In this document: one piece after another, positions 5,209 to 29,588 of the stretch | Layout: every line of letters starts with the position of its first letter | Numbering within the stretch: position 1 is the stretch's first letter | NCBI GenBank assembly: GCA_030390025.1 | Contig: CM059432.1 | Span: 39,558,001 to 39,622,000, forward strand | From: Squalus acanthias | Taxonomy: Eukaryota | Direction: 5' to 3' | DNA: 64,000 bases | Made by a program: the position numbers and the translations under genes | The notes under the pieces: generated by a model | Databases searched by the model: none | Told to the model about the DNA's origin: nothing | Seen by the model: only the letters and a program-made list of their open reading frames with translations

Positions 5209-5249
5209 CATTTTTATGAATGCATTTATAAATGAATGCATGATTAATT

Positions 5250-6035: not shown

Positions 6036-6050
6036 GTGCAACAATACTAT

Positions 6051-7608: not shown

Positions 7609-7804
7609 AAGTGAGAAGTCGCACAACACCAGGTTATAGTCCAACAGTTTTATTTGAAATCACAAGCTTTCGGAGCGGCTGCTCCTTCATCAGGTGAAGT
7701 CAGGTGAAGCTTGTGATTTCAAATAAAACTGTTGGACTATAACCTGGTGTTGTGCGACTTCTCACTTTTGTCCACCCCAGTCCAACACCGGCATCTCCGC
7801 ATCA
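7609..7804 (+). mobile_element. Short fold-back Penelope-like (pLTR) insertion
   Basis: 65-bp inverted arms (7605-7669 / 7707-7771) plus a one-sided tail matching 27734-27763. 12-bp TSD TTGAAGGAACAA (7597-7608 / 7805-7816). Confidence 0.9.
7660..7697 (-). ncRNA. Minimal type I hammerhead ribozyme motif
   Basis: Minus strand reads UCAC-CUGAUGA-A-GGAGC-AGCC-GCUCC-GAAA-GCUU-GUGA: canonical core, 5-bp stem II, 4-bp stem I and palindromic AAGCUU stem III. Confidence 0.8.
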
Positions 7805-10800
7805 TTGAAGGAACAAGACCACAAGTATGTTCAGCAATGTTACTGGAACCCAAAAGCTTGCACAGGTCAGAGCCCCTGAAATACCCTGAAACCCCAAATG
7901 GACCATGGATGAACCCATGTTGCAGCAAAGAAATGGCCTGTTCCATGGAAGGCTAAGGTAAGATCATTCTAAATTAGTTGTCGATACTTGCTCCCCTACT
8001 ACGAATAGGTCCCAGAGTATCAAATAGCATTAAAACTGACATCATATCACTGGGACACAGGGCTTATACTAGAATGCTTATATATGTAGTTATACAAGGT
8101 TGGTGTGGGACTAGGGCTGGGACTGTTGTGTGGTACTGCTAATCATAGATCCTGCAAGGTATTCAGCAGGGGAATAGTCACTGTGTAGTAAATAAATAAA
8201 CTGTGTTTGTTACTACAATCTCTGACTCCATCAATCGTTTCATTCATGATCTAACACAGCCCATGGTCTGCAAGTTGTATAGTCTCAAAAGGTTGAAACT
8301 ATGCACTAGATTAAATGGCAAAACTTGAATGGGAAAATTCAGCAATAAAAAGTGAAGACTATATTATCTTTTTTTAAATGTCTCAGATTGTATTAGACTT
8401 TATAACATAATCTTGGGGGTTTAAAATTGCCCTGGAATTGTATCAGCAGAACTCTGCAAAAGCTATAACCTTGTAACACACTCCAAGCCACTTTTTATGC
8501 TCTGTATAATCTTCTCCTGCTCCTAAAATTATCTTTCCTCCTCCTTTCCTCTTTCCTTCCTTCCTCTCTTTCTTTTATGTATTGCTGAAGTTTAACAACC
8601 ACCAAGTTCATACAAGCACATGTAACAGATGTTTTCTATCTTACCTTCATGGAGTTACCCTGATAATAGTCCAGAAATATCACACTGTAGTTCCAGAAAA
8701 CAGAGCATAGTTTTAAAAACTTTAATTTTATGGAATTAGGAGGCAGGTTTCTGTTTTCAAAGAAGTAACTTCATATTCACAGCCTTTTCCCTGACTGTAC
8801 TATCCTGACAGCTATTTGGTTCTGCCCTGTCACTTTTAATTTCTTTCTTCGTTCTGCCCTTTATTTCCAAAGGGCATTTTGGAAGTTGGAAAACATTGCT
8901 GAAAACATATTGCAAAATTATCTACCAATCTCACATACTTGACAAGTAAGAATTAGTTGTTCTTTTCCATCAACTAATGTGACAGGTATCAGAAAGGTCA
9001 TTTTCTTCATTTTTAATCACTTTCTACTTTATCTCTGTGACATATTCACAGGAACATATTCTGAATGAGCAAGTTTCATTTTAAGGCTAAATCCTGCTAT
9101 AAATTGAAGGTGACAGTACAGTGCTAATCCAAGGAAAATTATAGTGATGAAGACTAATCTTTTGTAATAAAGAGCTAAATAGCTGCATAATTGGCTGGAG
9201 AACTGTCAGCTATGAGAAAATATTTTTTTTCTCCATTACATGCTAATTAGCATCAAGTATTGCTTGCTGACGTCACACACTTCAATTTAATCCTTGGAAA
9301 AATTAATAAAAAGGTTTTCTGTGGTACTTCAACATGGTGCACCATTGTGCACTGAATATGCTGTGAAAATGATCGCATTTTAATTTGAAACACATCCCTG
9401 CAGCAGATTGATCTAAAGACATGCCAAATCCGTTCTGATTAATCTTAATCCAGTCCTTGAATGTCTCTGCCATTTGAACAAAATAAAAACAAGTCTAAAG
9501 GTATATCAAAATAAATATTCATTGGAGTTTCATACTATAAAATAAACAATTATTATTCACATCATTGATATGGCCTCAACTGTGCAATAATCCATTATTA
9601 CACACCGCTAGTCTCTTCAGAAACCTTGGGGTCAATAGTTTACAGGTACAATTCTTAACTTCAATCATATATATATACATATAAATATATTATATACACC
9701 AAACTGTTTGCTGCTATGGATGTGCTGTACCTAGTTGAAACATAATCAGTTGGCACAGGCTCAGCCAACATGAGCTAACTCAGGATAATGTGCATTCATG
9801 CTCCATGAAATTTTATATACTTTTGCTGATCATTACTTAAGATTGTTTTGTATTAACTTTGGCAGACCTTACCTTGGCTCCCAAATTAAAAGGGATGATG
9901 TATTTCCTCTTATTTATTATTTGCAATGGACTACTGAAGAAAAAAATGGAGCCCACTAAGAGATATATGCCTAGAAGTCAAAATTGTGCCTGCCAGAAAT
10001 AACAGCAAAGAGCTTACACTGGTGCCTCATTAACTTGTGGGAAAGAGTTCCCATAGGAAACGATAGGGTGCAAATAAATTCAAACCATTTCAAATTTGAA
10101 AGTTTAACCAAAGCCAAATTTGTAAAACAGAAGAGGCTCAATAACACTGTAACCTTATGTTGAGGGTCCCATAAATTTATCGTGAATGTTCTTAACAAAA
10201 TAATTGCTCATTGCTAGACATGGACATTGAGCAACAAATCCTAATGAAATATAAATGCTCACATTTCGTCTACATGTTATTTCGTTTTGTTTTATAAGTG
10301 TTGCTCTAATAATATGTGACTGACACCTACATCTGAGCCTGAAGTATGAGTATTTCATAAACTGGGCAGCCAAAGTATGAGGTATGCTTTGCCCAAAACC
10401 AGGATCTTGGCCTTCAAAAAAAAACTTTATGATATGGCGATTTACTATGTAGCTGTAAGTCTAAGGCAGCATGGATTATAAGTGAAAGGTACAGCTCGTT
10501 GGCTGGCATTGGTGAGGGCTTGCAGAACAGAGCAATCACAAAAATATTATTCCTTCTGAAAAATTAAGGTTAATGTAATATTTCATGCTAACAATGTGCG
10601 CACTCAATATTTGACATCTCATCCAAGAGGTGTTGGCAGTTTGGCAAACCTTTTTTTATTCAAGTACAAGTTCCTGACAGTTCATAGATATCACTACAAC
10701 TAAGATAACTATGGCCTGTGATGTGAACAATGATTGAAACTTAGGTAAATTGTGTTTATGTAAACTTTTTTGAAGGTATCAGTTAATGATTGTAAATTAA

Positions 10801-10824
10801 TTCCTCATTATAATGCTCTCTGAT

Positions 10825-11220
10825 AGCTCATCAGATAGCTCACGAGGTAGCTTAATGGGGAGTTGAACTGCCAGGGTAACACTGAGTGATGCAGTCTAGA
10901 AAGATCCCAACTTTGATCCCTGATCTATACTGAGTTATCTGGGCTTTGGTGAGCTTGGGCTGAGAAGGGAAAAATCAGTCAAGGTTCCTACTCCTGATCA
11001 CAGCCCCTGCTGTAAACTGCACATACGCATGCATCTGTTGAGGATAGGCTCAGGCTCAGATCACCCTGTGGGTGGACAGCCTGCCAGCACTCACCACCTA
11101 ACCTCACACATAAAGAATGGACACTTGAACAAGACACCAGAGGCATGCTGGCACTTGTATAATCATACCCAGCATGAATCATCACTTTCGGGACACGATA
11201 GGAGGGAAGAAGAGGGTATA
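10825..11220 (+). repeat. Old SINE-like interspersed repeat; second diverged copy at ~23530-23870
   Basis: Shared blocks cccctgctg, agcct(g/a)cca(g/a)cactcac and cactt(g/a)aacaaga(c/t)acca in both copies. Family not identified. Confidence 0.55.
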
Positions 11221-11868
11221 AAAGTGGACGATAAATGATACGCTCTCACAGCCAAAAGCCCGAATATGACATTAACTTTATAGGGTCATAGTGGAGACTA
11301 CATTGTACAATTACACTAAAGGTTTATGTTTGAAATAGGATCCTGCTTGGAGCAAGTGTTCATTAAAATCAAGATTAATTAAAAAATCAAATTGTTATAA
11401 TGAGCAATACAATCTAAGCAAATATAACAGAACACAAAAGCAATTAGAGAGGAAATCTTCCTGATCTTGTGCATTGCCAGCAGGAATGGTGCACTGCAGG
11501 GGATCCCACTGACTTGTAGTGCAGGGACATTTCTGCCAGAACTGATTATTTTGTTGCTAATTATATATTCATGGCAAGCTTCTGACCACACAGCAGGCTG
11601 CCTGTGGGAAGTGCCCCACACTGACAAGGAAATTTAAACCAATTTTTTTTTAAGTATTCCATTTCATATCAACTGAAGAAAAGGGGTTTAAAAAGTTACT
11701 CTATGGGGCAGATTTTCCTGTTCCTGCATCTGATTATGTTTGATCGCCTGGGTGCAGCTGTATCGAGGAAAATCAAGCACTGATGGAAATATTCTAATTT
11801 CGGTGGGCGAAGAGTGCACACTAAACATTGGGCAGGCTTCCTAATGGGTGTCAACTTTCCTCTAACAT

Positions 11869-13367
11869 AACAACAACAACAACTTGTATTTATATAGCGC
11901 CTTTAACGTAGTAAAACGTCCCAAGGCGCTTCACAGGAGTATTAAAAGACAAAAAATTAAACACCGAGCCACATAAGGAGAAATTAAGACAGGTGACCAA
12001 AAGCTTGGTCAAAGAAGTAGGTTTTAAACAGTGTCTTAAAGGAGGAAAGAGAGGTAGCGAGGCGGTGAGGTTTAGGCAGGGAATTCCAGAGCTTAGGGTC
12101 TAGGCAACAGAAGGCATGGCCACCAATGGTTGAGTGATTATAATCAGGGATGCTCAAGAGGGCAGAATCAGAGGAGCGCAGATATCTCGGGGGCTTGTGG
12201 GGCTGAAGGAGATTACAGAGATAGGGAGGGGCGAGGCCATGGAGGGATTTGAAAACAAGGATGAAAATTTTAAAATTGAGGTGTTGCTTAACCGGGAGCC
12301 AAAGTAGGTCAGCGAGCACAGGGGTGATGGGTGAACGGGAGTTGGTGCAAGTTAGGACATGGGCAGCCGAGTTTTGGATGACCTCAAGTTTAGGTAGGGT
12401 GGAATGTGGGAGGCCAGCCAGGAGTGCTTTGGAATAGTCAAGTCTAGAGGTAACAAAGGCATGGATGAGGGTTTCAGCAGCGGATGAGCTGAGGCAAGGG
12501 CGGAGACGAGCAAGGTTACAGAGGTGGAAATAGGCGTTCTTAGTTATGCTGCAGATATGTGGTCGGAAGCTCATTTCAGGGTCAAATATGACACCAAGGT
12601 TGCGAACAGTGTGGCTCAGCCTCAGACAGATGTTAGGCAGAGGGATGGAATCAGTGGCTAGGGAGCGGAGTTTGTGGCGGGGACCGAAAACAATGGCTTC
12701 GGTCTTCCCAATATTTAATTAGAGAAAATTTCTGCTCATCCAGAACTGGATGTCGGACAAGCAGTCTGACAATTTAGAGACAGCGGAGGGGTCGAGAGAA
12801 GTGGTGGTGGGGTAGAGCTGGGTGTCTTCATCGTACATGTGGAAACTGACGCTGTGTTTTCGGATGATGTCACCAAGGGGTAGCATGTAGATGAGAAATA
12901 GGAGGGGGGCCAAGGATAGATCCTTGGGGGACACCAGAGGTAACGATGCGGGAGTGGGAAGAGAAGCCGTTGCAGGTGATTCTCTGGCTACGATTAGATA
13001 GATAAGAATGGAACCAGGTGAGTGCAGCCCCACCCAGCTGGAGGACGGTGGAGAGGCGTTGGGGAAGGATGGAGTGGTCAACCATGTCAAAGGCTGCAGA
13101 CAAGTTAAGAAAGATGAGGAGGGATAGTTTACCTTTGTCACAGTCACAAAGGATGTCATTTGTGACTTTGAGAGCCGTTTCGGTACTGTGGCAAGGGCGG
13201 AAACCTGATTGGAGAGATTCAAACATGGAATTGCAGGAAAGATGGACACAGATTTGGATGGCGACAACATGTTCAAGGACTTTGGAGAGGAAAGGGAGGT
13301 TGTAGATGGGGCGGTAGTTTGCAAGGACTGAGGGATCAAGGATTGGTTTATTGAGGAGAGGGGTGAC
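11869..13367 (-). mobile_element. L2 LINE, 5'-truncated
   Basis: ORFs 12870..13424 (QSGFRPCHSTETAL, GVPQGSILGP) and 11984..12574 (AETLIHAFVTSRLDY, LLWLPV). L2-type 3' end AAAGGCGCTATATAAAT followed by a (TTG)n tail. Confidence 0.92.
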
Positions 13368-13369
13368 AT

Positions 13370-13675
13370 GGGATAACATAGGATATACAGTGCAGAAACT
13401 GGCCATTCGGCCCAACCAGTCCATGCCGGCATTTATGCTTCACTCGCACCTCCTCCCGTCTTTCCTCATCTAACTCTATCAGCATAACCCTCTATTCCCT
13501 TCTCCCTCATATGCTTATTTAGCCTCCTTTTAAATGCATCTATACTATATACTTCAACCACTCCCTGTTGTAGCAAGTTCCACATTCTCAACACTCTCTG
13601 GGTAAAGAAGTTTCTTCTGAATCCCTATTTGATTTCTTGGTGACTATCATATATTGATGGCCTCTAGTTTTGCTC
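13370..13675 (-). mobile_element. CR1 3' end fragment
   Basis: FFTQRVVRMWNL-like coding remnant and CR1-type 3' UTR. Confidence 0.8.
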
Positions 13676-14071
13676 AGAGACTCCTAAGATGAAGATTCGT
13701 GCCAACCTGTTCTTTGAACACCATGCCCTGGTGATCCAATACACCCAGGCATACAAACAGGAAACCCTGTTCCTATTTCTCACCAATGAAGGGTTTCAGA
13801 CAGTGCATGTGCACATTTAATGATTGTGCTCTTGAAGTCCTGACGCATGTAGTGAGGCAAATGAAGATTGCCCTGGTTGGAAGTCAAGGCCATTTTCACC
13901 AGAGACAAGTCCTCTAACACCTTACAGCTGACAAAGTGATTGGTCTCTGAAACACCCAGAGTACCTGGCAGCAAATGTGAAAAAAGATGGCTGATCTGAG
14001 GAAGAATATCAAAAGAAATGTTACCTAGCAATTTTCAAAAACAAATGAGTTGTAAGGATTAATTACACAAA

Positions 14072-14816
14072 GGAGGAGAAATTCGGTTGCTTAGCGCCTC
14101 CGTTAGTGCCGGGGGGGGGGGGGGGCGATAACGGGGCGCTAAGGAGTTAGCGACCGGGTGCGGCGAATGCAGCGACGCCCACGAAATTCATTTCTGGTTT
14201 ACTGCCTGGGCCTCAAGCGCCTCGCAGATCATGACGTCATCAAGTGCGCAGCGCCCCGGATGCGAAATTGGCTCCCACACCCTGCTGTGTCGCCGGGTGT
14301 CAGCAACAGCAGGAAGAGGAGGCGTTGTCAACTCAACTGGCAGCTTGGGGCGCGCTATTTAAAGGGGAGGGTTTTCAGGTAGGCCAACCTTTAATATTTC
14401 CACCAGTCTGGATCCTGCTGAAAGTTTTTGCCTGCTTCATTGCTACAAGATATCCAAGCTCTCCACTTTGTAGAGTGTTTCAGGCTGTAATGGCAGTCGC
14501 ACAGGTCGCCTTGCAACGCAGACCTGCCGACAAGTGGGTTGCGAAGCATGACTGGCTCTTCCCTTTAAGCGAGGGAAGCAGCCTCTGATGCTGTTAGCGA
14601 TGTGCTCGAAATTGTTCAGCGTTCTGCCGCTACCGCCCCGCTCCCGGACTTTAGCGCCCTAGGAGAAGTGGTTAGCACTCGATTTAGCGCTCCACTTTCC
14701 TCTTGGAGCGCTAAAGCTGAATTTCCTGTCAGGAGAGAATCATTCGCACCTGGCGCTACTTTTCCTACCTTTCAAAAGTTAGCGCTCCGACCCGGGCACT
14801 ACCCAATTTCTAGCCC
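14072..14816. mobile_element. PIF/Harbinger-type MITE (family B)
   Basis: TIRs GGAGGAGAAATT / GGGCTAGAAATT; AAA TSD (14069-14071 / 14817-14819). Repeated TTAGCGC motifs as in 3940-4643 and 55906-56799. Confidence 0.8.
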
Positions 14817-14977
14817 AAAGGCCCGTAACACCAACATTTTCATTCAACTTTAAAGCTCTTTGAATGCTTAGCAGAAATTTGCATCTAAAACTGTTGTTGC
14901 ACTAAAATCTTAATGGGGCTTTACATAATAAATCTTTCCAACTAGTTGCATGCTGAATATTCAGTTACTGACACATA

Positions 14978-17900
14978 GGCCGCGATTTCCCCTACCTTGG
15001 CGGGCCCGTGGCAGGCGACTTCGGTGGGAGGTCCTGACCTCGCTGCTGGCTCCAGCCTGTAAGATTCTCAAAATTCACAGATCCCCCAAAACTCGAAGAC
15101 ATACCCTAAGGAAAAAGACTTTGGACTCTTTTTCTAACTATTACAGGGTGGTGAAATGCATTGGGCTTAACCGAAGGACATTTTAGTGCAAAAACCGAGA
15201 TTTGGTATTTTAAAAGACATGTCTGGACTTGTGAGGGAGAAAAGGCTGTAAAGGAAGGTGGGTTCAACCTCTGTAAAGACAGTTTGGATATTGGAGTTAA
15301 TGGGAACTGTCTAGGGAACCGCATGACCTCGCTTGGAGTTAAATCGGCCCCTAGCAGACATTAACATCCTAACAATACCTGAGGAAAACAGTCTCCACCC
15401 AAATTTACAGAGCCCATTAAAGACATGCATAAAACAGATTACTTCGGCCTACTCTATAGAAATCCTAGACCCAGTCAAGAAACCCAAAACATGAGGACAA
15501 TTCAACTACAATCAAACAACAGATCGACAGGATGGAGCTATCCCGAAACCACTTCACACATTTACAAACCCGTTACTGTTTACGAGCCCTCCAAAATCTT
15601 ACAATGACCGGGATTTGATTTGGCATGCAGATAAGGAAGCTTCAATGGGTATAATTAAAGGCCCGTTCTCAACAGTTCAAGTTTGAGTTCTCCAGTACAG
15701 GTACACAGTTCAGCAGTTACAACAAGCTCCCTACAAGTTAAAGGGTGGGGCAGTTCCACAGTTCTGCAAGAAGGCAGTTCCACAGCTCTGAAGAAGACAG
15801 TTCAACAAGGCGAGGGGGCAACAGAAAGAAGTTCAACAAAGAAGGCCAGCAGCTCCAGAAGTAGGCCGACACGCAAGAAGGGACCAGAGCGACCGCCTCA
15901 GTGACCATCGGACACCTCGCGGCAACAAGGGCCTTACGAAACTTTTTACTTAAAAGGACTCTAAACCCTACCTTTAACCAAAGAAAAGTGGGTACTCACC
16001 CGATAAATCCAATCCAGTGAACCCCGAAACCGCGAACCATCTCAACTGTCAAGGATTCGTTAGGTGAGCATTATCCCTGGTTCTCCAGAGTCCAACCTAG
16101 CTAGTGAAGTGGGATTGGGAGGGTTGAAGTATTATTCTAATGTTATTTCCCTCGCTTGTACCAAAGTGTTCCCCACTTTTAGAGTGTTAAGCGTGTTTGT
16201 GTTGTGTTTTACTTTCTTGAATAAAGATGAAAGTTCTTGCATCAAACGCAGTTGTCTGCTGCACTTTTTGTCACAACCCCCAAATAAGTCCAAGGTCGAG
16301 AACCAAGGGAGTGGGAGCGATTCGAACCGCTCAGAAGTCAGAGGTGAAGCTGACACAAACCACCACCCCTACAAGCCCGCTGTCCAAAATGATTTTACGT
16401 TGATTGGGCTTGTTAAGCCCACCTAGCGCGTTTGCCAGCCAATTGAATGAAGCGGGTCTGATGACGTCATTTGATGACACGTCATCAGCCGGTTTCCTTA
16501 AAGGGACCATGCGCAAATTTAGTTTGACAGTTGTGCTGTCAGTGTTCTACAGCATTGAGGTGCTGCAAACACTAACAAGCACTGCACAGAGGTGCACAGC
16601 TGAACTCAGGCTCTTCCATGACTCCCTCCATATGCTTATGGAGGGAGTCACAGCATGCAGGGAGGTCCTCTTCCCTTCCTATGGGCAGAAGAGACCTCCC
16701 CAGGAGACCAACGCAGCCTGGTTGCACATTGCACAGGAGACACAAGCAGGGATGCCGTCAGGAGGACCAGGCTGCAGTGGCGCAAACCTTTCAATGATCT
16801 CAATAGATCACGAAACGTTACTGCAAAGCCACACTCAACCTCATTCTCCTGTGCCACTCATCACATCCCCATCACTTTGCCTTCCCTACCCTACTCCTGC
16901 ACATCCTTACTCACACCAACATACCTTGCACCTCCACCCATCCCTCTCTATCTACATTATCACTTCCCCATCTCACTAGCCACCCCTCACACTCACCCTC
17001 ATCCTAGTCCAATCATACCAACTAACAACACACAAGGGTCGGCACTTGGGTGTTTTATCCAATGTTCATGTAAAGTTTGTGTTAATGTGCTGTCAAACAT
17101 TGAAACCTTTCTTTTCAACACTTTTTTGTGTTCTTGGGCAGATTTGTGTGAACCTTTGGAAGTGGCTTAGTGAGTTGCAGTGAATGGTGAGACATAATGG
17201 TACCCCCCGCAATGCAATGAGTGTGAAACGAATGGCTTGGGCATTGTAGGGCTGCTTTATGGTGTTAGTGTGGGGTGGTGCCAACCTGGTGCATCATGTG
17301 GCAGCCAGGGTGTACAGTGTCAATTGAAGAAAATGTGGCCATGGTGAGACCATCCCTGGCGTCCTGGGCAGCAATGTGGTCGGGTGCTGATGCCCTCTGT
17401 CCTGTGCAGCATCAGTTGATTGCAGAGAAGGTTGGTGTTGTTGTTGGTGCTCCTGGTGTGCCTGGTGCTTCTGATGTTGGGGCTGATCATAGTGGGATTC
17501 TGAGGACCAAGGTGAGATAGTTCCAAGGGCACCGATGCTGATGTAATAGATGGCAGGTGAAGTTGAGATGACAGAAGCAATCTGTCAATGGTGAGAGAGT
17601 TTGTTCCAATGAGGTGACACTGGATAGAGAGTTTGCTCCAAACACTTCCAACCTGCATAAAGCTCAATCTGTCTTCCAAATGCAGTAAGCAACAGCTTCT
17701 GAGCTTGGAAAGTGAACAGCTGTGAGATGGGAGCTTTTATAGCATATTTGCATCTGTCAAGTATTGAGATGATTCCATGGTCATACAACTCCCGGACTGC
17801 TTGCCTGATGTGATCTCCGAGCAGCGTGGACCCCGTGGGCAACCTCGTAAAAAGGTAAGATGAGCTCAAATACTTTTTTATGGGCTGTTAACAAGGACAT

Positions 17901-18081
17901 AATGACCTGAATTGCCTCCCCTGCCGCTGCGTGTCGGGTCTGTTCATCCCTGACAGATCCGACATCTGGGAAAGTCGCGTGGCGACGGGTTGACAGCGAG
18001 GTCCCGACCAGTTGTCAAAACATTTTTTTCCCACCTGACCCGCCACCGAACGCGCCTGCAGACTCCCCAAGAAATTCCCCC
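14978..18081. mobile_element. Internally deleted PIF/Harbinger element (Myb exon on +, fused transposase ends on -) with a nested solo LTR
   Basis: ATA TSD (14975-14977 / 18082-18084). Myb remnant ~16570-16820 (LFHDSLHMLMEGV...REVLFP...WLHIAQE...QWRKPFNDLNRS). 17275-17570 joins homologues of 41125-41230/42480-42545 and 43560-43650. Confidence 0.8.
15058..16373 (+). mobile_element. Solo LTR (ERV1/Gypsy-type), 1316 bp
   Basis: TGTAAG...CCTACA termini; exact 4-bp TSD AGCC (15054-15057 / 16374-16377). TATAA ~15650 and AATAAA ~16220. Host element is contiguous across the insertion. Confidence 0.88.
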
Positions 18082-18990: not shown

Positions 18991-19174
18991 ATAAAACGAC
19001 TGTGTAACTTTAAGAGGAAGAAAGGGGACAGGACCAACCGTGAGGTCCTAAACAGTAAAACCATATAATATATTATATCTAAATGGCAAGATTGTGGTTT
19101 GATTTACAGTATTGGAAATGAAAATTATTCTCACCAAAGCATCTCAAAAGTTTACCCAATGCATACCGACTTTC

Positions 19175-20001
19175 GGGCTGGATTTTGTCAGCCCCAAGGA
19201 GGCGGGTATGGAGGCAGGACTGCGGGTAAAGTTGCAGAATTTGGGGGCGGGTGGCCTTCGTGCCCTCTTGCCAGGAGGCAGGAAGCTGCCCTGCCCCGGG
19301 TCCTGTCTCCTCGAGGCGGAAAAGGGATTAAAGCCTATTAACTGCCTGTTAACAGGTAGTTAACAGGCAGAAAATAGGATTATCCCCATTTTTCCTTCCG
19401 AAGTGCAGGCTTCCCGACCTCAAGGAACCCCGCCAGGGTGTAGGAGAAGAGTAGGAGGTCTGCGGGGGTCGGAGGGGGTCTGAAAGTGCGATGTAGAGGT
19501 GAGTGATGGGTGCAAGTGTGGAGTGGTAAGTATGTAAGGTGAGTGTAAAGTGTTAGAAAATGTTCACTTACCTTTGTTTCTACCTACAGCCTTCAGCCAC
19601 TGTGGAGCCAGAGTCCCGACATCTCCATTGTAGATATCACAGACTGGCTGTTGGATCCTCTGAACCAACAGCCAGGTGATTTCTGCAAAGTTGAAAGGTT
19701 TGATGAGTCCTGAACACAAGAACTCATCAAACTACACAGAATGTCAGTGTTTGACAGCTTCACAGAGCTGTCAAACAATGACATTTCTTCTTTCAAAAGT
19801 TCTTGACAGATGAAACATCAGACGTTGACATTCTCTGTCACTGACTTCCCCCTAATTGGCCTGCTGAGCCCGCTGGGCGGGCTTAACAAGGTCAATCAGG
19901 GAAAAATCCCGCTGGTTGGCCAGAAGCTGATGGAGGCGGGATTGAAAGCCGGTAAGCAGCAGTCCCGCCTCCAAAAGCTTCCCATTGAGAAAATCCAGCC
20001 C
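19175..20001. mobile_element. Non-autonomous PIF/Harbinger element (family A)
   Basis: TIR GGGCTGGATTTT / AAAATCCAGCCC with shared subterminal block (gcgggcttaacaagg.caatcagg). TSD not preserved. Confidence 0.82.
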
Positions 20002-20691
20002 CAAGTGTCTGTTTTGTTTTTCTTTTCTTTTAGAGCCCGCGGGAAGCCTCCGATCGCAAATGTTGGGCCAACATTACTTGATCCTAAAACTAGATTTATA
20101 AGAAAGGAAAGAAAACGAAAGAAAGAAAGAGAGTATAACAGTACTTGATCCTAAAACTAGATTTTGTTCCTTTTTCTTGCACTGGATGCTGCCCTCACAA
20201 CTCACATACTGGTCTCCAGAGGACCGAAGGAAGGTCTGAATGGACAAGGATTATTAGTTTTCAACTGGTGTGGTAACTGATTAAATGACTCTATGATTAG
20301 GCAATATGCTCTACCCACATCCTCAACCAGGTTATATTGTATTACACAATACTGCCATATTGTTGTAAACTTGGCTGTTACCAGATTACTGTCACTGCTG
20401 GTTTGGATAGTCTGATGGAGGCAGATGAATGCCCTCCCACAATGTGCTGTGGGTGTGTGGTGATGGTGTTGCAGGGTAAGGGCCTGCTCATTGTGGCTGG
20501 AGTGATCTCTCGTCCATGACACTTGACTTACCAGCTTGTGTGGTGCTATCCAGATATGACCCAGGTGCAGGTGTGATGTTGTTTTTATTTAATTCACTCC
20601 TAAATGTTATGTTTGACTCAGCTTCAATACCCACTATGGTGACATGTTAAGGCTAAAATTTGCTTATTTTATGATTAATTCAAAATATATT

Positions 20692-21434
20692 GGCCCAAAA
20701 ATTAGTGCCGCTACGCGAGAGTACGCACTGCGTACTCTCGCGTATTCTGTCTCCAATTGCCGGTTTTCTGCATGCACTGCGCATGCACTGAAAACCAGCA
20801 CTTGGTGAATGGAAAAGGGGGCGGGTCCTAGGTGAACCGCGTGTGCGCTACAGGCTGCGCGCACGCTGTGCACTTAGTGGTTTCAACGCGCAGGTAAGTA
20901 CGGAAGATTCTACACATAAAAAAAGGAGGAGTAAGACCCACTTTTAACAAGGTAAGTAGTGAATTAAGTATTATTTTGAATTTTTTTTAACAGGTATATC
21001 TTTTTTAGAGACTTTAAAGACAGGTAAGTTTATTTTTATAACTTTTTAAAAGATTTTAATTTTTTCAAAAATTTAATTTTTTATTTAAAATGGTTAATTT
21101 ATTTAACTATACTTATTTTATTAATGTGATGGGTTTTCTTTTAAATTTAATTGAGGTTTAGCGGTTCTTTTGGGGGGCTATAGTATTCATAACTTTCACA
21201 GCACTTATGTGAAAGTTATGAATGGAAGATGGTGTGCTGCCATTGGCTCTAACTGAGTCACGTGATCCCACAGCTCGCACGAATTAACTACGCCGGTGGG
21301 ATACGCAAGCCCAGCACAGCAGCTGTCCAGAACATCAAGTTCGTGCGAGCTGGAACTGAAAAAGCCAACGCGCAGTGAGAGATCGCGGGGAGGCCTTACC
21401 CTCGCACGAAGGCTTCCTCACGAATTTTTGGGCC
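20692..21434 (+). mobile_element. PIF/Harbinger-type MITE (family C)
   Basis: TIR GGCCCAAAAATT / AATTTTTGGGCC; ATT TSD. GC-rich ends and AT-rich core homologous to 30248-31011 and 46752-47496. Confidence 0.9.
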
Positions 21435-21454
21435 ATTGTTTTGATTTTTTTTTG

Positions 21455-23390
21455 CATGATACAGCACAGAAGGAGGCCAATTCAGCCCACCGTGCCTGTG
21501 CCAGCTCTTTGAAAGAGCTATCTAATTAGAACCACTCCCCTGTTCTTTCCCCATAGCTCTGCAAATTTTTCCTCTTCAAGTATTTATCCAATTCCCATTT
21601 GAAAGTTATTATTGAATCTGCTTCCACTACCCTTTTATTCCAGATCATAACAACTCACTATGTAAAAAAAATATTTTCCTCATGCCACTTCTGGTTCTTT
21701 TGCCAATCACCTTAAATCTACGTCCTTTGGTTATTGACGCTTCTGCCACTGGAAATTCTATCAAAGCCCTTCAAGATCAAATCTCCCCTTAACCTTCTCT
21801 GCTCTAAGGAGAACAACCCCAATTTTTCTAATCTTTCCACGTAACTGAAGTCTTTCATCCCTGGTACCATTCTAGTATATCTCCTCTGCATCCTCTCTAA
21901 GGCCTTGACATCCTTCCTAAAGTGTGGTGCCCAGAATTGGCCAAAATACTCCAGCTGGGGCCTAATCAGTGTTTTTTAAAGGTTTAGCATAACTTCCTTG
22001 CTTTTGTATTCTACACCTCTATTTATAAAGCCAAGGATCCTGTGTGCCTTTTTGACAGCCTTCTCATCTGGTCCTGCCGCCTTCAAAGATGTGTACGTAA
22101 CCCCGCCTCCCCCAGGTCTCTCTGTTACTGCACCCTCTTTAAAATTGTATCATTTAGTTTATATTGCCTCTCCTCATTCTTCCTACCAAAATGAATTACA
22201 TCACACTTCTCTGTGTTAAGTTTAATCTGCAATGTTTCTGCCCATGTCTGTCTATGTTCTCCTGAAGTCTGTTACTATCCTCCTTCCTGTTTACTATATT
22301 TCAAAGTTTTGTGCCATCTGCAAATACTGACATTTTTTTTAATTTGTTCATGGGATGTGAGCGCCGCTGGCAAGGCCAGCATTTATTGCCCATCCCTAAT
22401 TGCCCTTGAAAAGGTGGTGGTGAGCCACCTTCTTGAACCGCTGCAGTCCTTGTGGTGAAGGTACTCCCACAGTGCTGTTGGGGAGTGAGTTCCAGGATTT
22501 TGACCCAGCGATGATGAAGGAACGGCGATATATTTCCAAGTCAGGATGTGTAACTTGGAGGGGAACTTGCAGGTGATAGTGTTCCCATGCATCTGCTGCC
22601 CTTGTCCTTCTAGGTGGTAGAGGTCACGGGTTTGGGAGGTGCTGTCGAAGAAGCCTTGGTGAGTTGTTGCACTGCATCTTGTAGATGGTACATACTGCAG
22701 CCACAGTACGCCGGTGGTGGAGAGAGTGAATGTTTAAGGTGGTGGATGGGGTGCCAATCAAGTGGCCTGCTTTGTCCTGGATGGTGTCGAGCTTCTTGAG
22801 TGTTGTTGGAGCTGCACTCATCCAGGCAAGTGGAGAGTATTCCATCACACTCCTGACTTGTGCCTGTAGATGGTGGAAAGGCTTTGGGGAGTCAGGAGGT
22901 GAGACACTCGCCGCAGAATACCCAGCCTCTGACCCACTCTTGTTGCCACAGTATTTATGTGGCTGGTCTAGTTAAGTTTCTGGTCAATGGTGAACCCCAG
23001 AATGTTGATGGTGGGGGATTCAGCAATGGTAATGCCGTTGAATGTCAAGGGGCGGTGGTTAGATTCTCACTTGTTGGAGATAGTCATTGTCTGGCACTTG
23101 TGTGGCGCGAATTTTACTTGCCACCGACCAGCCCAAGCCTGAATGTCATCCAGGTCTCGTTGCATGCGGGCATGGACTGTTTCATTAACTGAGGAGTTGC
23201 GAATGCCCTGTATAACCAAGTCTAGGTCATTAATATATATCAAAAAGAGCAGTGGTCCTGCAGGGACACCACTTCCCTCCAGTCTTAAAAACAACCGTTC
23301 ACCACTACTCTCTGCTTTCTGTCCCTTAGCCACGCAGCTACTGTCCCTTTAATCCCATGGGCTTCAACTTTGCTAACATGTCTATTATGT
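21455..23390 (-). mobile_element. CR1 LINE fragment (21455-22335 and 23205-23390) interrupted by another LINE
   Basis: CR1 3' UTR and RT remnants (GPLLFLIYINDLDL) lie on both sides of the insert. Confidence 0.8.
22340..23204 (-). mobile_element. L2/Crack-like LINE 3' portion with poly(A)-like tail
   Basis: ORF remnants MQRDLDDIQAWAGRWQVKFAPHKCQ and MEYSPLAWMSAAPTTLKKLDTIQDKA. Other copies at 51535-51860 and 62236-62892. Clade assignment tentative. Confidence 0.8.
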
Positions 23391-24454
23391 GTTCAGAATG
23401 GCAGGGAAGTTGACCTTATTAATGTGGCCAACTAAATGCTTTATATTATTTTACATCTTTTATATCCAGAATTAGGGATGTGCAGCACTAAATAGGGCTT
23501 CAAAGCATTTCAGCCACAGTATAACAGAGCATAGTCAGCCACCTCCAAGCTGGGGTTGTTACTTCAGACTACCATCCATTGAACCCCTGCTGGATAATTT
23601 GTGGGGGTGTGGATTTTAAGTTTCATTATGATGCTCCACACAATCAAATAGCCTACCAACACTCACTATCTAGATTCACATGTATAAGATATCTACTTAA
23701 ACAAGATACCACAAGGTAGATTTTCAACTTCAATGGAAATGAAAATCAGTTGGTTTCTATAAGAGGCGGCTGATCCACAATGCCAGTTTGATGCCCAGTT
23801 GGCAATTTGAAAATCTATCCTGACCATACTTATAGGACTGCACCCTAGAATGTGTTACTGCTTTCAGAAAAGTAAACTGAATGCCATACAAAGGAAAATT
23901 AAAAAAAACAGAAGATGAAAAAAAAGTTGTTACAAAGGTTCACATTTCACTGATGGTGATAAGTCTGTCAGAGGAAAATGCCTTACTACAAGAAAGGAGA
24001 GAAAATTAAAGGATAAATCACCCAGGAACACTTTGTCTATCTCCTAGTAGCTAGTTAAAGAGGTAGGACCAGCTTGATTTACTGACCATCTTAGCCAAGA
24101 AATTTTGGTCACTGACCCTCTGCCAAAGAATGTGGAGACTTGAAAAGAATCCTGGTTCTTCAGGAAGAAAATCAAATCAATTTTGAATCCCATTTCATCT
24201 TCATTCCTCAATCTGTTTGACATTTTCCAAATTACATTGTTGTGACTTGAGTGATATGCCTTTCCCTGCCCATCCATAGTGTCACAGCTTGGAAACATGG
24301 GCATTAAACTACGGTTCATTAGTGCACAGCTAAACAGTGTCAAAGCCATTGATCAAGGTATTAACAACACTTGCTGCAATTGCTCTGATGGAAATGTAAT
24401 TTAGTCCAGTGGCTATATAAAGCAAAGATCTACAACCTAAATTTCCATTTTAGG

Positions 24455-24929
24455 AAAGAAACAAAGAAAGACTTGCATTTATACAGCACCTTTCACGACC
24501 ACCGGACGTCCCAAAGTGCTTTACAGCCAATGAAGTACTTTCTTTTTTTAAGTGTCGTCACTGTTGTAATGTAGGAAACGCAGCAGCCAATTTGCAAACA
24601 GCAAGCTCCCACAAACAACAATGTGATAATGACCAGATAATCTGGGTTTTTTTGATTGAGGAATAAATATTGGCCAGGACACCGGGGATAACACCCCTGC
24701 TCTTCTTCAAAATAGTGCCATGGGATCGTTTACGTCCACCTGAGAGAGCAGACAGGGCCTTGGTTTAATGTTTCATCCAAAAGGTGGCACCACCAATAGT
24801 GTAGCACTCCCTCAGTACTCCACTGGAGTGACAGCCTAGATTTTGTGCTCAAGTCTCTGGAGCGGGACTTGAACCCAAAACCTTCTGACTCAGAAGCAAG
24901 GATGCAACCAATTGAGCCACAGCTGACAC
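24455..24929 (-). mobile_element. tRNA-derived Deu-domain SINE (SacSINE1-like)
   Basis: A box TGGCTCAATTGG and B box GGTTCAAGTCC on minus. Central GATCCCATGGCACTATTTTGAAGAAGAGCAGGGG block; L2-like tail ending in CTTT repeats. Confidence 0.85.
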
Positions 24930-25006
24930 TATGAGGATGTCAATTAAACTTAAAAAATTAAAGAGAAAGGCATCATGGATACAGGCAACGGAACTACGCT
25001 GCCTAC

Positions 25007-27331
25007 ATGCGCATCAAGAACAGGAAGCTTGAGAAACTCGGCATCACCACCAGCAGCAGCCAAGCCTCCCCCGGTACTACGGCTGCAACCACAGGGAAGT
25101 CCATCGTCAATTTGTCCGACCATACCCTTCAACCAGACGAAATCGAAGTTCTCTCCCTAGGGCTCAAGTTCTGCCCAACCACCAAAATGGACCCCATCGG
25201 TCTCGCGGCAGACACGGAGGAATTCATCAGGAGAATGAGGCTCCGGGAATATTTCCACAAATCCCAAGATGTCAGCAACAAACCCAATGAGACAATCAAT
25301 GATCCAGAACAGCAGACAGAGGGACTCGCAGTGCAGCAACCGAAGAAAAAAGAGTCAAACTGGACCCCTCCGGAGGGTCACTGCCCCAAGCTTGATATGT
25401 ATGCTCAAGCTGTCAGGAGATGCATCAATGCCAGATTCATCAGCCGCACTCACAAGACAGTCCAGAATGTCACCCGAGCACAACGCAACGCCATCCACGC
25501 TCTCAAGACCAACCGCAACATCGTCATCAAACCAGCGGACAAAGAAGGAGCCATCGTCATACAGAACAGAATGGACTATTGTAAAGAAGCATACCGACAA
25601 CTGGACAACCAGGAACACTACAGACAGCTACCCGCAGATCCGACCAAAGAACACACCCGCCAACTCAATAGACTGATCAAGACCTTCGATCCAGACCTTC
25701 AAAACATCCTACGCGCTCTCATCCCACGTACTCCCCGCGTGGGAGACTTATACTGCCTCCCAAAGATACACAAAGCCAACACACCCGGACGTCCTATCGT
25801 ATCAGGCAACGGAACCCTATATGAGAACCTCTCTGGATACGTCGAGGGCATTCTGAAACCCATCGTACAGGGAACCCCCAGCTTCTGTCGCGACACTACA
25901 GACTTCTTACAGAAACTCAGCACCCACGGACCAGTTGAACCAGGAACACTCCTCGCCACGATGGACGTATCGGCACTCTACACCAGTATCCCCCACGATG
26001 ACGGCATCGCTGCGACAGCCTCAGTACTCAACACCAACAACAGCCAATCTCCAGACGCCATCCTACAACTCATCCGCTTCATCCTTGACCACAATGTCTT
26101 CACCTTCGACAACCATTTTTTTACCCAAACACACGGAACAGCCATGGGGACCAAATTCGCACCCCAATACGCCAACATCTTCATGCACAAGTTCGAGCAA
26201 GACTTCTTCACTGCACAGGACCTCCAGCCAACGCTGTACACCAGATACATCGACGACATTTTCTTCCTTTGGACCCATGGCGAAGGATCACTGAAAAGAC
26301 TACACGATAACATAAACAAGTTCCATCCCACCATCAAACTCACCATGGACTACTCCTCAGAATCGGTTTCATTCCTGGACACACGAATCTCCATCAAAGA
26401 CGGACACCTCAGCACTTCACTCTACCGCAAGCCCACGGACAACCTCACGATGCTCCACTTCTCCAGCTTCCACCCTAACCACGTTAAAGAAGCCATCCCC
26501 TATGGACAAGCCCTGCGAATACACAGGATCTGCTCAGACGAGGAGGAACGCGATGGACACCTACGGACGCTGAAAAACGCCCTCGTAAGAACGGGATATG
26601 ATGCTCGACTCATCGATCGACAGTTCCGACGGGCCACAGCGAAAAATCGCATAGACCTCCTCAGAAGGCAAACACGGGACACAACCAACAGGGTACCCTA
26701 CGTCGTCCAGTACTTCCCCGGAGCGGAGAAACTACGCCATGTTCTTCGCAGCCTTCAACATGTCATCGATGACGACAAACACCTCGCTAAGGCCATCCCC
26801 ACGCCTCCACTACTTGCCTTCAAACAGCCGCCTAACCTCAGAAGTACCATCGTTCGCAGCAAATTACCCAGCTTTCAGGATAACAGCGACCACGACACCA
26901 TACAACCCTGCCATGGCAAACTCTGCAAGACATGCCAGATCATCAACACAGATACCATCATCACACGTGAGGACACTACCCACCAGGTACATGGTACATA
27001 CTCATGTGACTCGGCCAACGTTGTCTACCTCATACGTTGCAGGAAAGAATGCACCGCGGCATGGTACATCGGCGAGACCATGCAGACACTGAGACAACGT
27101 ATGAACGAGCACCGCGCAACAATCGCCAGGCAGGATTGTTACCTCCCAGTCGGGGAACACTTCAGCAGTCAAGGACATTCAGCCTCGGATCTGCGGGTAA
27201 GCGTTCTCCAAGGCGACCTTAGGAAAACACGACAACGCAAAATCATCGAGCAGAAACTGATAACCAAGTTCCGCACTCATGAAGACGGTCTCAATCGGGA
27301 TCTTGGGTTTATGTCACGATACATGACGTGA
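25007..27331 (+). CDS. Penelope-like reverse transcriptase / GIY-YIG endonuclease, 774 aa, uninterrupted (frame also open upstream to the junction)
   Basis: IKPADK, YCLPKIHK, GRPIVS, DVSALYTSIP, GTAMG and RYIDDIF motifs. Cys-rich linker PCHGKLCKTC. GIY-YIG motif NVVYLIRC...WYIGET...R..EH...E...GLN. Confidence 0.95.
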   Translation: MRIKNRKLEKLGITTSSSQASPGTTAATTGKSIVNLSDHTLQPDEIEVLSLGLKFCPTTKMDPIGLAADTEEFIRRMRLREYFHKSQDVSNKPNETINDPEQQTEGLAVQQPKKKESNWTPPEGHCPKLDMYAQAVRRCINARFISRTHKTVQNVTRAQRNAIHALKTNRNIVIKPADKEGAIVIQNRMDYCKEAYRQLDNQEHYRQLPADPTKEHTRQLNRLIKTFDPDLQNILRALIPRTPRVGDLYCLPKIHKANTPGRPIVSGNGTLYENLSGYVEGILKPIVQGTPSFCRDTTDFLQKLSTHGPVEPGTLLATMDVSALYTSIPHDDGIAATASVLNTNNSQSPDAILQLIRFILDHNVFTFDNHFFTQTHGTAMGTKFAPQYANIFMHKFEQDFFTAQDLQPTLYTRYIDDIFFLWTHGEGSLKRLHDNINKFHPTIKLTMDYSSESVSFLDTRISIKDGHLSTSLYRKPTDNLTMLHFSSFHPNHVKEAIPYGQALRIHRICSDEEERDGHLRTLKNALVRTGYDARLIDRQFRRATAKNRIDLLRRQTRDTTNRVPYVVQYFPGAEKLRHVLRSLQHVIDDDKHLAKAIPTPPLLAFKQPPNLRSTIVRSKLPSFQDNSDHDTIQPCHGKLCKTCQIINTDTIITREDTTHQVHGTYSCDSANVVYLIRCRKECTAAWYIGETMQTLRQRMNEHRATIARQDCYLPVGEHFSSQGHSASDLRVSVLQGDLRKTRQRKIIEQKLITKFRTHEDGLNRDLGFMSRYMT

Positions 27332-27641
27332 TCCGGACTCGAGTCGTCGTTAGCTTGTTCACAGATGTGATTCCCAGTAAAAAAGTAAAAATTTTAAAGT
27401 TAATCGTTTTACATACAGACGGCAGCTTTTGACACGTTCGACCCCATGCGATTCCACCTCATTGTCTCAGTTGTATCTTGCTATGTCTTTGATGTGGTAC
27501 CTTCCTGGCTGACCTGATTAACTTTATCACACCTCGGCAGATAAACAGTCAGGATGATTGAATTCAGTTGTCTGCAATTGTAAGTTACACATGCTTTGTT
27601 CTCTATCTATATATGCTTTGACGATTCTGTATCTCCTCACT

Positions 27642-27679
27642 TCACCCGACGAAGGAGTTTTAACTCCGAAAGCTTGTGA
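27642..27679 (+). ncRNA. Minimal hammerhead ribozyme motif (core variant CCGACGA)
   Basis: UCAC-CCGACGA-A-GGAGUU-UU-AACUCC-GAAA-GCUU-GUGA; one core deviation (U4 to C). Confidence 0.7.
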
Positions 27680-29038
27680 TTTAAAATAAAACTGTTGGAC
27701 TATAACCTGGTGTTGTGCGACCTCTCAATTTTGTCCACCCCAGTCCAACACCGGCATCTCCGCTACAGGAGTAGTGCCAGAGGACTGGAGGGTTGCTAAT
27801 GTTATACCACTATTCAAGAAAGGGGAGAGGGATAAACCAGGAAGCTACAGACTAGTCAGCCTAGCATTGATGGTGGGGAAGTTATTGGAAACCATTATCA
27901 AGGACAAAATAAACTTCATTTAGAAAGGCATGGGTTAATCAAGGAGAGCCAGCATGGATTTGTTAAAGGTAAATCCTGTCTGACTAAATTGATTGAATTG
28001 TTTGATGAGGTAACAGAGAAGCTTGATCAAGGTAGTGCAGTAGATGTATATATGGACTTTCGGAAGGCATTCGACAAAGTGCCTTACAGGAGTCTTAAGA
28101 AGATGGAAGTCCATGGAATTAAGGGGAAAGTGGTGGTATGGATACAAAATTGGCTCTGTGACGGGAAGCAAAGTGTGATGGCTGGATGGATGTTTTCAGA
28201 CTGGGAGGTGGTTTGCAGTGGTTATTGCCCAAGGCTCAGTTTTGGGTCCATTACTCATTGCAATTTTTATAAACGACCTAGACTCGGGTGCAGGGAGCAG
28301 CATTATAAAATATGCAGATGATACAAAACTCGGCAAAGTAGTAGATGATGATGAGGATAGTTATAGGCTTCAGGATGACATAGGATGGTGAAATGGGCAG
28401 AAGCATGGCAGATGGAGTTCAATGCGGAGAAGTGTAAAGTGATGTACGTTGGGAGGACTAATATGGAAAGACAGTATACTATATTTTGATTTTGAAAAGT
28501 GTAGATGAGTAAGAGAGACCTTGGTATCGATATACACAAATCCTTAAAGGTGGCACGGCAAGTTTCTAAGGTGTTTAAAAAAGCCTATGTGTTACTTGGG
28601 TTTATAAATAGAGGAATAAAATATAAAAGCAAAGAGATCATGCGGGAACTTTATAAATCACTGGTTAGGCCTCAGCTGGAGTATTGTGGGCAATTCTGGG
28701 CACCACACTTCAGCAAAGATGGAAAGACATTAAAAAAGGGTACAGAGGAGGTTTACCAGGATGTTACCAGGGTTGAGGGACTTCAGTTATGAGGAGAGGT
28801 TAGAAAAATTAGGACTCCTTGGAAAAAAGAAGGTTAAGAGGAGACCTAATAGAGGTTTTCAAGATGATGAGGGGTTTTGAAAGAATAGATAGAGAAGGGC
28901 TGCTCCTTCTGGTGAGTGGGTCAATAACCAGAGGTCATAGATTTAAAATCATTGGCAAAAGATCTAGAGGGGAGATGAGGAGAATTTGTTCACTCAGAGA
29001 GTTGTCGGGATCTGGAACGCTCTGCCTGAAAAGGTGGT

Positions 29039-29588
29039 CATGATGTGGAGATGCCGGCGTTGGACTGGGGTGGACAAAAATGAGAAGTCGCACAACACCA
29101 GGTTATAGTCCAACAGATTTATTTAATTTTACAAGCTTTCGGAGCTGTCGCTCCTTCTTCAGGTAGGGTAGCTGTGAGAGAATCTCCCAGAATTCACAAT
29201 ATAAACACAGAAAAAATGTATTCAAATCTTTCCCTACATCAAAGACACACTAAGAGCACAGCCAAGACAATGAGATGTGTCCCAGGGGGTCCAACGTGTC
29301 AAAACACCTGCTGGCTGCATATCCTCTCCATTTGTGTTGGATATGCAGCCAGCAGGTGTTTTGACACGTTGGACCCCCTGGGACACATCTCATTGTCTTG
29401 GCTGTGCTCTTAGTGTGTCTTTGATGTAGGGAAAGATTTGAATACATTTTTTCTGTGTTTATATTGTGAATTCTGGGAGATTCTCTCACAGCTACCCTAC
29501 CTGAAGAAGGAGCGACAGCTCCGAAAGCTTGTAAAATTAAATAAATCTGTTGGACTATAACCTGGTGTTGTGCGACTTCTCATTTTTG
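29039..29588 (-). mobile_element. Fold-back Penelope-like insertion with perfect 250-bp inverted arms
   Basis: Arms 29075-29324 / 29339-29588, 14-nt spacer, one-sided 36-nt tail 29039-29074. 12-bp TSD TGAAAAGGTGGT (29027-29038 / 29587-29598). Confidence 0.93.
29498..29533 (+). ncRNA. Minimal hammerhead ribozyme motif (mirror copy at 29130-29165 on minus)
   Basis: UAC-CUGAAGA-A-GGAGC-GACA-GCUCC-GAAA-GCUU-GUA. Confidence 0.8.

What the first reader, a model, noticed from the sequence alone, without database searches (positions are those of the whole stretch)
7660..29533. Covarying minimal hammerhead ribozyme conserved across three Penelope-family insertions
Seen: 7660-7697(-), 27642-27679(+) and 29498-29533(+, mirrored at 29130-29165) all read C(U/C)GANGA-A-stemII-GAAA-GCUU. 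Stem I covaries (UCAC/GUGA vs UAC/GUA). Stem II keeps pairing (GGAGC/GCUCC vs GGAGUU/AACUCC) while its loop changes freely (AGCC, GACA, UU). Stem III is only the palindrome AAGCUU. Known: Penelope pLTRs carry minimal type I hammerheads thought to cleave as dimers. Inference: this family has been selected for self-cleavage after GCUU.
Basis: partly seen in the sequence, partly recalled or inferred. Interest (0 to 1): 0.7.

Follow-up and report, generated by a model that had tools for sequence, protein, structure and literature searches.

The report
Shark Penelope hammerhead, core lost, regained
These motifs are real copies of the tiny "hammerhead" self-cutting RNA motif already known from Penelope-type jumping genes, here in tens of thousands of copies in a shark-like genome; the one twist is that a branch of the family spread with a normally fixed core letter changed and likely regained the standard letter twice, which suggests cutting helps the element but is not essential.

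Summary
All four motifs are at the stated coordinates, far beyond chance (4 vs 0 in 200 shuffles). They lie in pLTRs of one Neptune-like Penelope family (RT + GIY-YIG, 892-aa ORF, about 3.1-kb unit) with 43,181 canonical-core pattern matches genome-wide. This is the published minimal type I hammerhead of Penelope elements, a new member of a known kind. Three corrections: the 'GGAGUU/AACUCC, loop UU' parse is impossible (it is 5 bp plus UUUA); the dimer helix is AGCU, not AAGCUU; the cut triplet is CUU or CUC. Covariation is real but thin: two double-change pairs, not significant by pair count (113/500). Better evidence is where change is allowed: N7, H17, loop and wobble pairs vary. Copy 2's CCGACGA is U4C, inherited by 3,733 matches including intact tandem elements. 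A tree shows one gain and two returns to U4, one by point reversion, one likely by ribozyme replacement. Copy 5' ends pile up 7 nt before the core with an extra G (likely the capped start), not at the cut site. Cleavage is untested. Earlier scan notes already reported U4C and the cap footprint.

The parts
7609..7804 (.). Insertion 1: about 196-bp inverted (tail-to-tail) Penelope stub with no ORF; 12-bp target-site duplication at 7597-7608 / 7805-7816
7660..7697 (-). Hammerhead copy 1, canonical core; predicted cut between 7664 and 7663; its arm begins at 7700 (predicted transcript +1) after a G at 7701
   Evidence: start site inferred
7707..7804 (+). Right arm of insertion 1, truncated inside AAGCTT (no complete hammerhead), with the full tail
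24986..27763 (+). Insertion 2: 5'-truncated Penelope-like element (N-terminal part of the 892-aa ORF missing); candidate 6-bp duplication TACAGG at 24980-24985 / 27764-27769
24980..27331 (+). Open frame of 783 codons (first codons lie in the flank): RT with YIDD, CX4CX2C linker, GIY-YIG endonuclease
   Evidence: RVT_1 E 5e-9; GIY-YIG E 5.1e-5, above cut-off
27608..27614 (+). TATA-like box, 31 nt before the predicted +1 (A27639, in an initiator-like TCACTTC)
   Evidence: sequence; similar spacing in most sampled subfamilies; initiator consensus recalled
27642..27679 (+). Hammerhead copy 2 with U4C core (C at 27647); predicted cut between 27675 and 27676
27685..27763 (+). AATAAA (27685-27690) and conserved tail; in tandem copies the tail runs into the ATG of the next ORF
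29039..29586 (.). Insertion 3: inverted pair with 250-nt, 100% complementary arms, no ORF, inside a CR1/L2-like LINE fragment (LINE identity recalled); 12-bp duplication at 29027-29038 / 29587-29598
29130..29165 (-). Hammerhead copy 3', left arm, canonical core, 3-bp stem I
29498..29533 (+). Hammerhead copy 3, right arm, canonical core; predicted cut between 29530 and 29531

Best explanation
The motifs are minimal type I hammerhead sequences in the pLTR of a high-copy Neptune-like Penelope retroelement, and they likely cut the element's RNA slowly and only in pairs, so that cutting helps but is not required for each insertion. Shown: a TATA-like box, a predicted start 7 nt before the core, the hammerhead, AATAAA, a tail and the ATG follow one another in the pLTR, and tandem elements carry two hammerheads about 3.1 kb apart. 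Inferred: in a read-through transcript the two AGCU palindromes pair to give each core its missing stem III, probably with help from the element's protein. Each core then cuts after CUH, releasing a unit-length RNA that would be ligated into a circle and copied into longer-than-unit cDNA. Inferred: much RNA stays uncut, and reverse transcription that starts in the tail and runs off the capped 5' end makes the short stubs such as insertion 1. Shown by tree: one branch fixed U4C and kept spreading, and the canonical U4 returned twice.
For: Anatomy. It matches the published min-HHR (extra base between 9 and 10.1, G10.1-C11.1, palindromic 15.2-16.2, no helix III; PMC4209133). In 124 copies sampled by a tail anchor, stem II pairs hold in 122-124 of 124 and I-3 in 123 of 124 (CG 88, UA 28, UG 7), while N7 takes all four bases, H17 is U or C, and loop II has 25 sequences of 3-9 nt. 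On a tree built without the ribozyme, N7 changes 6-7 times and G8 never, though both are in the same CpG; no four-fold ORF site exceeds 4 changes. 10 of 14 distinct recurrent substitutions fit hammerhead rules against 11/34 expected from transitions, P=0.003 (hand-listed, post hoc). Monomers fold into stems I and II with no stem III. U4C: 3,733 vs 43,181 canonical matches; 3 changes on the tree, monophyly rejected, p-AU 7e-76. Arm 5' ends: 29 of 255 at C3-6..-8 (9.7 per site vs 1.4 background); G 82: A 18 before the start in the first 100 of 4,690 matches. 11 of 14 tandem copies begin upstream of the predicted start, so they came from longer-than-unit templates.
Against: No cleavage was measured. 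Only two pairs show double changes, each about one evolutionary path, and the pair-count measures are reached by 113 of 500 shuffles. Invariance of 12 core sites is only P about 0.05 against four-fold ORF sites, and the tail 3' of the motif is about as conserved. The terminal stem I pair is broken in 19 of 124 copies, and II-5 passed through a C·A mismatch. The modelled double hammerhead is less stable than two monomers for 3 of 3 window copies. No excess of ends at the cut site (4 of 255). PMC11167929 found ribozyme mutants insert normally in vitro. PMC4209133 found low dimer activity, and 8 of 9 Xenopus retrozyme dimers did not cleave (bioRxiv 10.64898/2026.07.22.740005). Circle versus read-through template is not distinguished.
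Confidence: 0.72

Rival explanations
1. The hairpin is kept mainly for a job other than cutting, such as a 5' leader, protein-binding site or RT template element; catalysis is vestigial or the ribozyme merely rides along.
For: U4C spread to 3,733 matches with intact ORFs. The tail is about as conserved as the core. Insertions record uncut RNA. Ribozyme mutants insert in vitro (PMC11167929). Naiad elements thrive without hammerheads (PMC8557442).
Against: The single-stranded positions that vary (N7, H17 only U/C) follow catalytic-core rules, not simple hairpin rules. U4 returned twice and the descendants amplified.
Confidence: 0.17
2. The ribozyme is active but works as a protein-assisted monomer, with the element's protein holding the one-pair stem III, so dimerisation through AGCU is incidental.
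For: The Anolis Poseidon hammerhead cleaved only when its protein was added (PMC11167929). The double-hammerhead fold is not the lowest-energy dimer. Partner copies are 3.1 kb apart.
Against: The G-C inside AGCU is kept in 123 of 124 copies, which a dimer helix needs and a monomer loop would not obviously need. Single motifs were inactive and dimers weakly active in PMC4209133.
Confidence: 0.1
3. Chance resemblance, or three decayed copies of one sequence whose differences were read as covariation.
For: The three window copies alone give only two double changes; copy 1's N7 is probably post-insertion decay.
Against: 0 hits in 200 shuffles. The copy 2 and copy 3 variants have many near-identical genomic copies, so their differences were inherited from source elements.
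Confidence: 0.01

Closest known systems
Minimal hammerheads (min-HHR) in pLTRs of metazoan Penelope-like elements (Cervera and De la Pena 2014, PMC4209133; parts 1-2 of 4 read, one supplement file searched, file 1 not searchable)
   Same: Type I topology, short stem I (3-4 bp), unpaired base between A9 and G10.1, G10.1-C11.1 pair, palindromic 15.2-16.2, no helix III, many consensus families per genome, mostly solo truncated copies and opposite-strand pairs.
   Different: Stem II is 5 bp rather than 7-8 bp as in Schistosoma. The copy number here (43,181 exact-pattern matches) exceeds the 4,000-9,000 reported for coelacanth and Xenopus. The parts read list U3-A8 but no U4C family and no shark.
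Neptune-clade endonuclease-positive Penelope-like elements (definition from Craig et al. 2021, PMC8557442; passages read)
   Same: Single ORF with RT then C-terminal GIY-YIG, CX4CX2C linker between them, partial tandems, inverted 5'-truncated copies, a 30-40-nt optional tail.
   Different: The clade was assigned by the linker motif only; no reference phylogeny was built and Nematis was not excluded.
Poseidon element of Anolis, PAc (Frangieh et al. 2024, PMC11167929; parts 1-2 of 4 read)
   Same: Hammerhead near the ORF start, two 3' end points defining a tail, uncut RNA as the main template, no ends at the predicted cut site.
   Different: In PAc the ORF starts inside stem II and the tail is coding; here the hammerhead and tail lie before the ATG.
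U4C natural variant of a viroid hammerhead (Perreault et al. 2011, PMC3088659, one passage read; the primary paper was not read)
   Same: Same core change, reported to lower activity considerably in vitro yet allow replication.
   Different: A canonical monomeric viroid ribozyme, versus a minimal retroelement ribozyme inherited by thousands of genomic copies with two returns to U4.

Membership tests
Penelope-like element (EN+) | Single ORF with RT and C-terminal GIY-YIG endonuclease | tested here: met
   RVT_1 E 5e-9, GIY-YIG E 5.1e-5, 892-aa intact ORFs in relatives; copy-3-type loci carry the ORF at mostly 85-93% amino-acid identity
Penelope-like element (EN+) | pLTRs from partial tandems, inverted 5'-truncated copies, optional 30-40-nt tail | tested here: met
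   inverted arms stop about 30-36 nt short of the full tail
Neptune clade | CX2-5CxxC linker between RT and EN | tested here: met
   CHGKLCKTC between YIDD and the GIY-YIG motifs; shared with Nematis per PMC8557442
Neptune clade | RT phylogeny with reference Neptune elements | not tested
   no named reference proteins fetched
Minimal type I hammerhead of PLEs | Core CUGANGA / GAAA / UH with extra base after A9 | tested here: met
   copies 1, 3, 3' fully canonical; copy 2 departs at U4C only; U4 in 111 of 124 sampled copies
Minimal type I hammerhead of PLEs | Stems I and II paired, G10.1-C11.1 | tested here: met
   98.7% of cells paired in 25 recurrent types; MFE folds
Minimal type I hammerhead of PLEs | Palindromic 15.1-16.1 in place of helix III | tested here: met
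   AGCU: A-U in 122 and G-C in 123 of 124
Minimal type I hammerhead of PLEs | Statistically significant covariation | tested here: inconclusive
   2 pairs with double change, 113/500 shuffles; cell-based measures 0/500 but inflated by kinship; R-scape not available
Minimal type I hammerhead of PLEs | Site-specific self-cleavage as a dimer | not testable with these tools
   needs an assay; no genomic footprint at the cut
Non-LTR retrozyme | Short non-coding tandem repeats, each with a type I hammerhead | tested here: not met
   no such array in the window; copies are truncated or inverted ends of a coding element
Rfam hammerhead families | Covariance-model match | tested here: not met
   no hit at E<=1; consistent with a minimal motif that lacks helix III

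The most novel reading that the evidence does not exclude
This genome holds a natural experiment on what Penelope hammerheads are for. An autonomous lineage fixed a weakening core change (U4C) and still made thousands of copies, but the intact core came back twice: once by a point reversion that founded about 250 copies, and once by replacement of just the ribozyme tract from a sister lineage. The replaced lineage is now about twice as common as all U4C copies (24 vs 12 of 124). Together with capped, uncut 5' ends recorded in thousands of stubs, this would mean cleavage is a slow, advantageous but dispensable step, probably circle formation, and the matched natural variants make that directly testable.
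Probability: 0.45. Interest if true: 0.58.

Novelty: new member of a known kind. Interest (0 to 1): 0.33.

Why it matters
That Penelope pLTRs carry minimal hammerheads has been known since 2014, so the finding as written is ordinary. The open question is what the ribozyme does: PMC8557442 calls its function unclear and PMC11167929 found it unnecessary for insertion in vitro. This family supplies matched natural variants in near-identical backgrounds (U4, U4C, revertant, replaced) and intact ORFs, so relative cleavage rates can be set against amplification history. The pile-up of 5' ends also predicts the transcript start to the base and places the ribozyme in the first 40 nt of the mRNA, where cutting would remove the cap.

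Tried and rejected
Rfam scan: no hammerhead match. PDB sequence search with the 892-aa protein: 0 hits. Expression: no RNA holder on record, 21 runs listed, contigs only; four runs laid gave no start or end information, so nothing is concluded on expression or cleavage in vivo. A 'CCGCCGA' (U4C+A6C) subfamily was considered and rejected: its 2 copies (L318, L319) share the same 3' flank letters, and it is absent from the first 100 of 1,090 A6-variant matches, about four-fifths of which look like fold-back junctions (counted by eye). U4C as scattered decay was rejected: identical in all 30 loci (chosen by identity) and confined to a few stem II types. U4 reversion as scattered CpG decay was rejected: 96 of the first 100 of 258 revertants share one loop. 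A cut-site footprint was looked for and not found; one search had a mis-set anchor and was discarded. Whether U4C and canonical lineages differ in capped stubs was not resolved. Rows dropped: of 169 sampled insertions 39 were truncated or unparsed and 6 junction artefacts were removed; the tree used 81 distinct of 474 parsed arms, those with enough ORF, many from identity-selected loci. Literature searches found no paper on shark Penelope hammerheads or on U4C in Penelope elements; the library lacks most subscription papers, Lunse et al. 2017 was not held (seen only as cited in PMC6765202), and bioRxiv supplements were not seen and may list the one chondrichthyan's motifs.
Full report
Observation. 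The four motifs are present exactly at the stated coordinates and are the only hits of a core-plus-stems descriptor in the window; 200 shuffles gave none. They belong to three insertions, two with 12-bp target-site duplications and one with a candidate 6-bp duplication. Copy 2's stem II is 5 bp with loop UUUA. The palindrome that can serve as stem III is AGCU. The stem I difference is one C-G to U-A swap plus a lost terminal pair. Rfam does not recognise the motif.

The element. Copy 2 lies about 310 nt after the stop of an open frame of 783 codons with RT, a CX4CX2C linker and GIY-YIG. Relatives show the full unit: the tail runs into ATG, the ORF is 892 aa, and hammerheads recur every 3,114-3,138 bp. 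Copy-3-type loci carry the same ORF at mostly 85-93% amino-acid identity, and copy-1-type hammerheads sit on ORF-bearing copies in the tree, so all three insertions are one family. By the linker motif described in PMC8557442 (passages) it is Neptune-like; this was not tested by phylogeny. The 3.7-Gb genome has 97,899 exact matches to a 25-nt tail word and 43,181 to a canonical-core pattern; both count the two arms of inverted pairs separately. 'Shark-like' is my recollection from the LINE context and genome size, not a tool result.

Is the fold under selection? I sampled copies by anchors downstream of the ribozyme: 100 anchors (69 insertions) from the start of contig 1 and 100 spread over contigs 1-8. 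Of 169 insertions 130 parsed and 124 were kept. Stem II pairs hold in 122-124 of 124, with recurrent A-U to G·U, G-C to G·U and C-G to U·G or U-A. The third stem I pair is C-G 88, U-A 28, U·G 7, C·A 1. The fourth is broken in 19. N7 takes all four bases, H17 is U or C, and loop II has 25 sequences. On 25 recurrent types, 98.7% of cells pair, but only two pairs show double changes and 113 of 500 shuffles reach that count; RNAalifold recovers both stems. On a tree built from ORF end and UTR without the ribozyme, N7 changes 6-7 times, the loop at least 10 times and G8 never. Against this, core invariance is only P about 0.05 relative to four-fold ORF sites, and the tail is about as conserved. A hand-listed count of 10 of 14 distinct substitutions fitting hammerhead rules gives P=0.003; it is post hoc, weaker if the likely CpG change and the C·A intermediate are discounted, and recombination inflates change counts. 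The verdict is selection on a hammerhead-shaped fold, shown by the pattern of tolerated change more than by covariation.

U4C. Copy 2's CCGACGA is not decay. It is shared by all 30 closest loci (chosen by identity) and by 3,733 genome matches in a few stem II types, and it is in both pLTRs of tandem elements with intact ORFs (for example L212). PMC3088659 (passage) states that U4C considerably lowers activity in vitro yet lets a viroid replicate. The tree needs three changes of state in every bootstrap tree and rejects U4C monophyly (p-AU 7e-76); the root is a midpoint, but all outer branches are canonical, so I read it as one gain and two returns. Return 1: 258 of 1,974 matches with the U-A stem have U4, 96 of the first 100 with one loop, so a revertant source element amplified. 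U4C creates a CpG, which would make this reversion easy (inference). Return 2: the CUGAGGA lineage carries UTR markers that arose stepwise inside the U4C group (a 4-nt deletion, a 24-nt duplication) and the U4C-type tail, yet its ribozyme differs by one base from that of an outside lineage. The simplest reading is replacement of a short tract containing the ribozyme. That lineage makes up 24 of 124 sampled copies against 12 for U4C. One event cannot show that the restored core caused the success.

Where the RNA starts. A TATA-like box lies 31 nt before an A that is 7 nt upstream of C3. Arm 5' ends pile up there: 29 of 255 arms in three positions, 9.7 per site against 1.4. Genome-wide 4,690 matches have a non-native purine just before that A, G in 82 of the first 100. 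In 30 loci examined, G was not explained by the inverted arm in 10, against 0 for A, although one of the 10 looks like a genomic flank misclassed by my script and 12 Gs could be templated by the inverted arm. This is what copying of a cap would leave (established for other retroelements; recalled), so these stubs likely came from capped RNA that was not cut. Ends at the predicted cut are not enriched: 4 of 255 in seven positions, 0.57 per site against 0.87. Cut linear RNA may simply be degraded or circularised, so this does not show absence of cleavage. 11 of 14 tandem copies start upstream of the predicted start, so longer-than-unit templates exist; circle and read-through are not distinguished. 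In Drosophila Penelope the promoter is described as TATA-less and internal (PMC2377424 passages), so this layout differs.

Mechanism. I commit to slow, dimer-dependent and probably protein-assisted cleavage after CUH that trims a read-through transcript to unit length for circularisation, with most steps inferred from PMC4209133 (parts 1-2 read), PMC11167929 (parts 1-2) and PMC6765202 (passages). Folding shows no monomer stem III and a double hammerhead slightly less stable than two monomers, in line with low activity. The main rival is that the hairpin serves a non-catalytic role.

Novelty. The finding as given is a new member of a known kind. My searches found no paper on shark Penelope hammerheads or U4C in Penelope elements, within a library that lacks most subscription papers; the bioRxiv retrozyme survey (parts 1 and 3 and passages) includes one chondrichthyan without motif detail in the text I saw. 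Earlier notes of this scan, seen only after my analysis, already report U4C and the cap footprint; two report a cut-site footprint in other genomes, which I do not see here. None of the eight listed mentions the two returns to the canonical core. Interest 0.33.

Noticed in passing
window 27608-27763: Compact pLTR layout: TATA-like box at -31, initiator-like +1 at 27639, hammerhead +4 to +41, AATAAA at +47, GU-rich stretch, tail, then ATG in tandem copies. Cutting would remove the cap with a 37-nt piece.
   Followed up: yes
L213:3075-6212: One tandem element has a U4C hammerhead in its upstream pLTR and a canonical CUGAGGA type downstream, a mosaic that suggests template switching between subfamilies.
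   Followed up: partly
L218:2817-6706: A copy-3-type pLTR sits between ORF pieces inside a locus that ends in a U4C element; nested or chimeric insertion.
   Followed up: no
L410, L411, L418, L420 (about position 1500): Four separate loci show the same fold-back junction, ending in TG before the predicted start, which hints at a preferred fold-back point or added bases.
   Followed up: no
window 19710-19798, 39372-39460, 53049-53137: A different repeat family (D20) with a long imperfect hairpin; it gave only a weak, sub-threshold miRNA-family match.
   Followed up: no
window 39194-39675 and 52872-53352: Two copies, 93-94% alike, of an unidentified roughly 480-bp repeat containing that hairpin.
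   Followed up: no
window 27765-29038 and 29599-29720: A CR1/L2-like LINE fragment (identity recalled) that was hit by two Penelope insertions about 1.3 kb apart.
   Followed up: partly
window 47383-47435: GC-rich palindromic hairpin with a weak Rfam match (E 0.97), probably chance.
   Followed up: no
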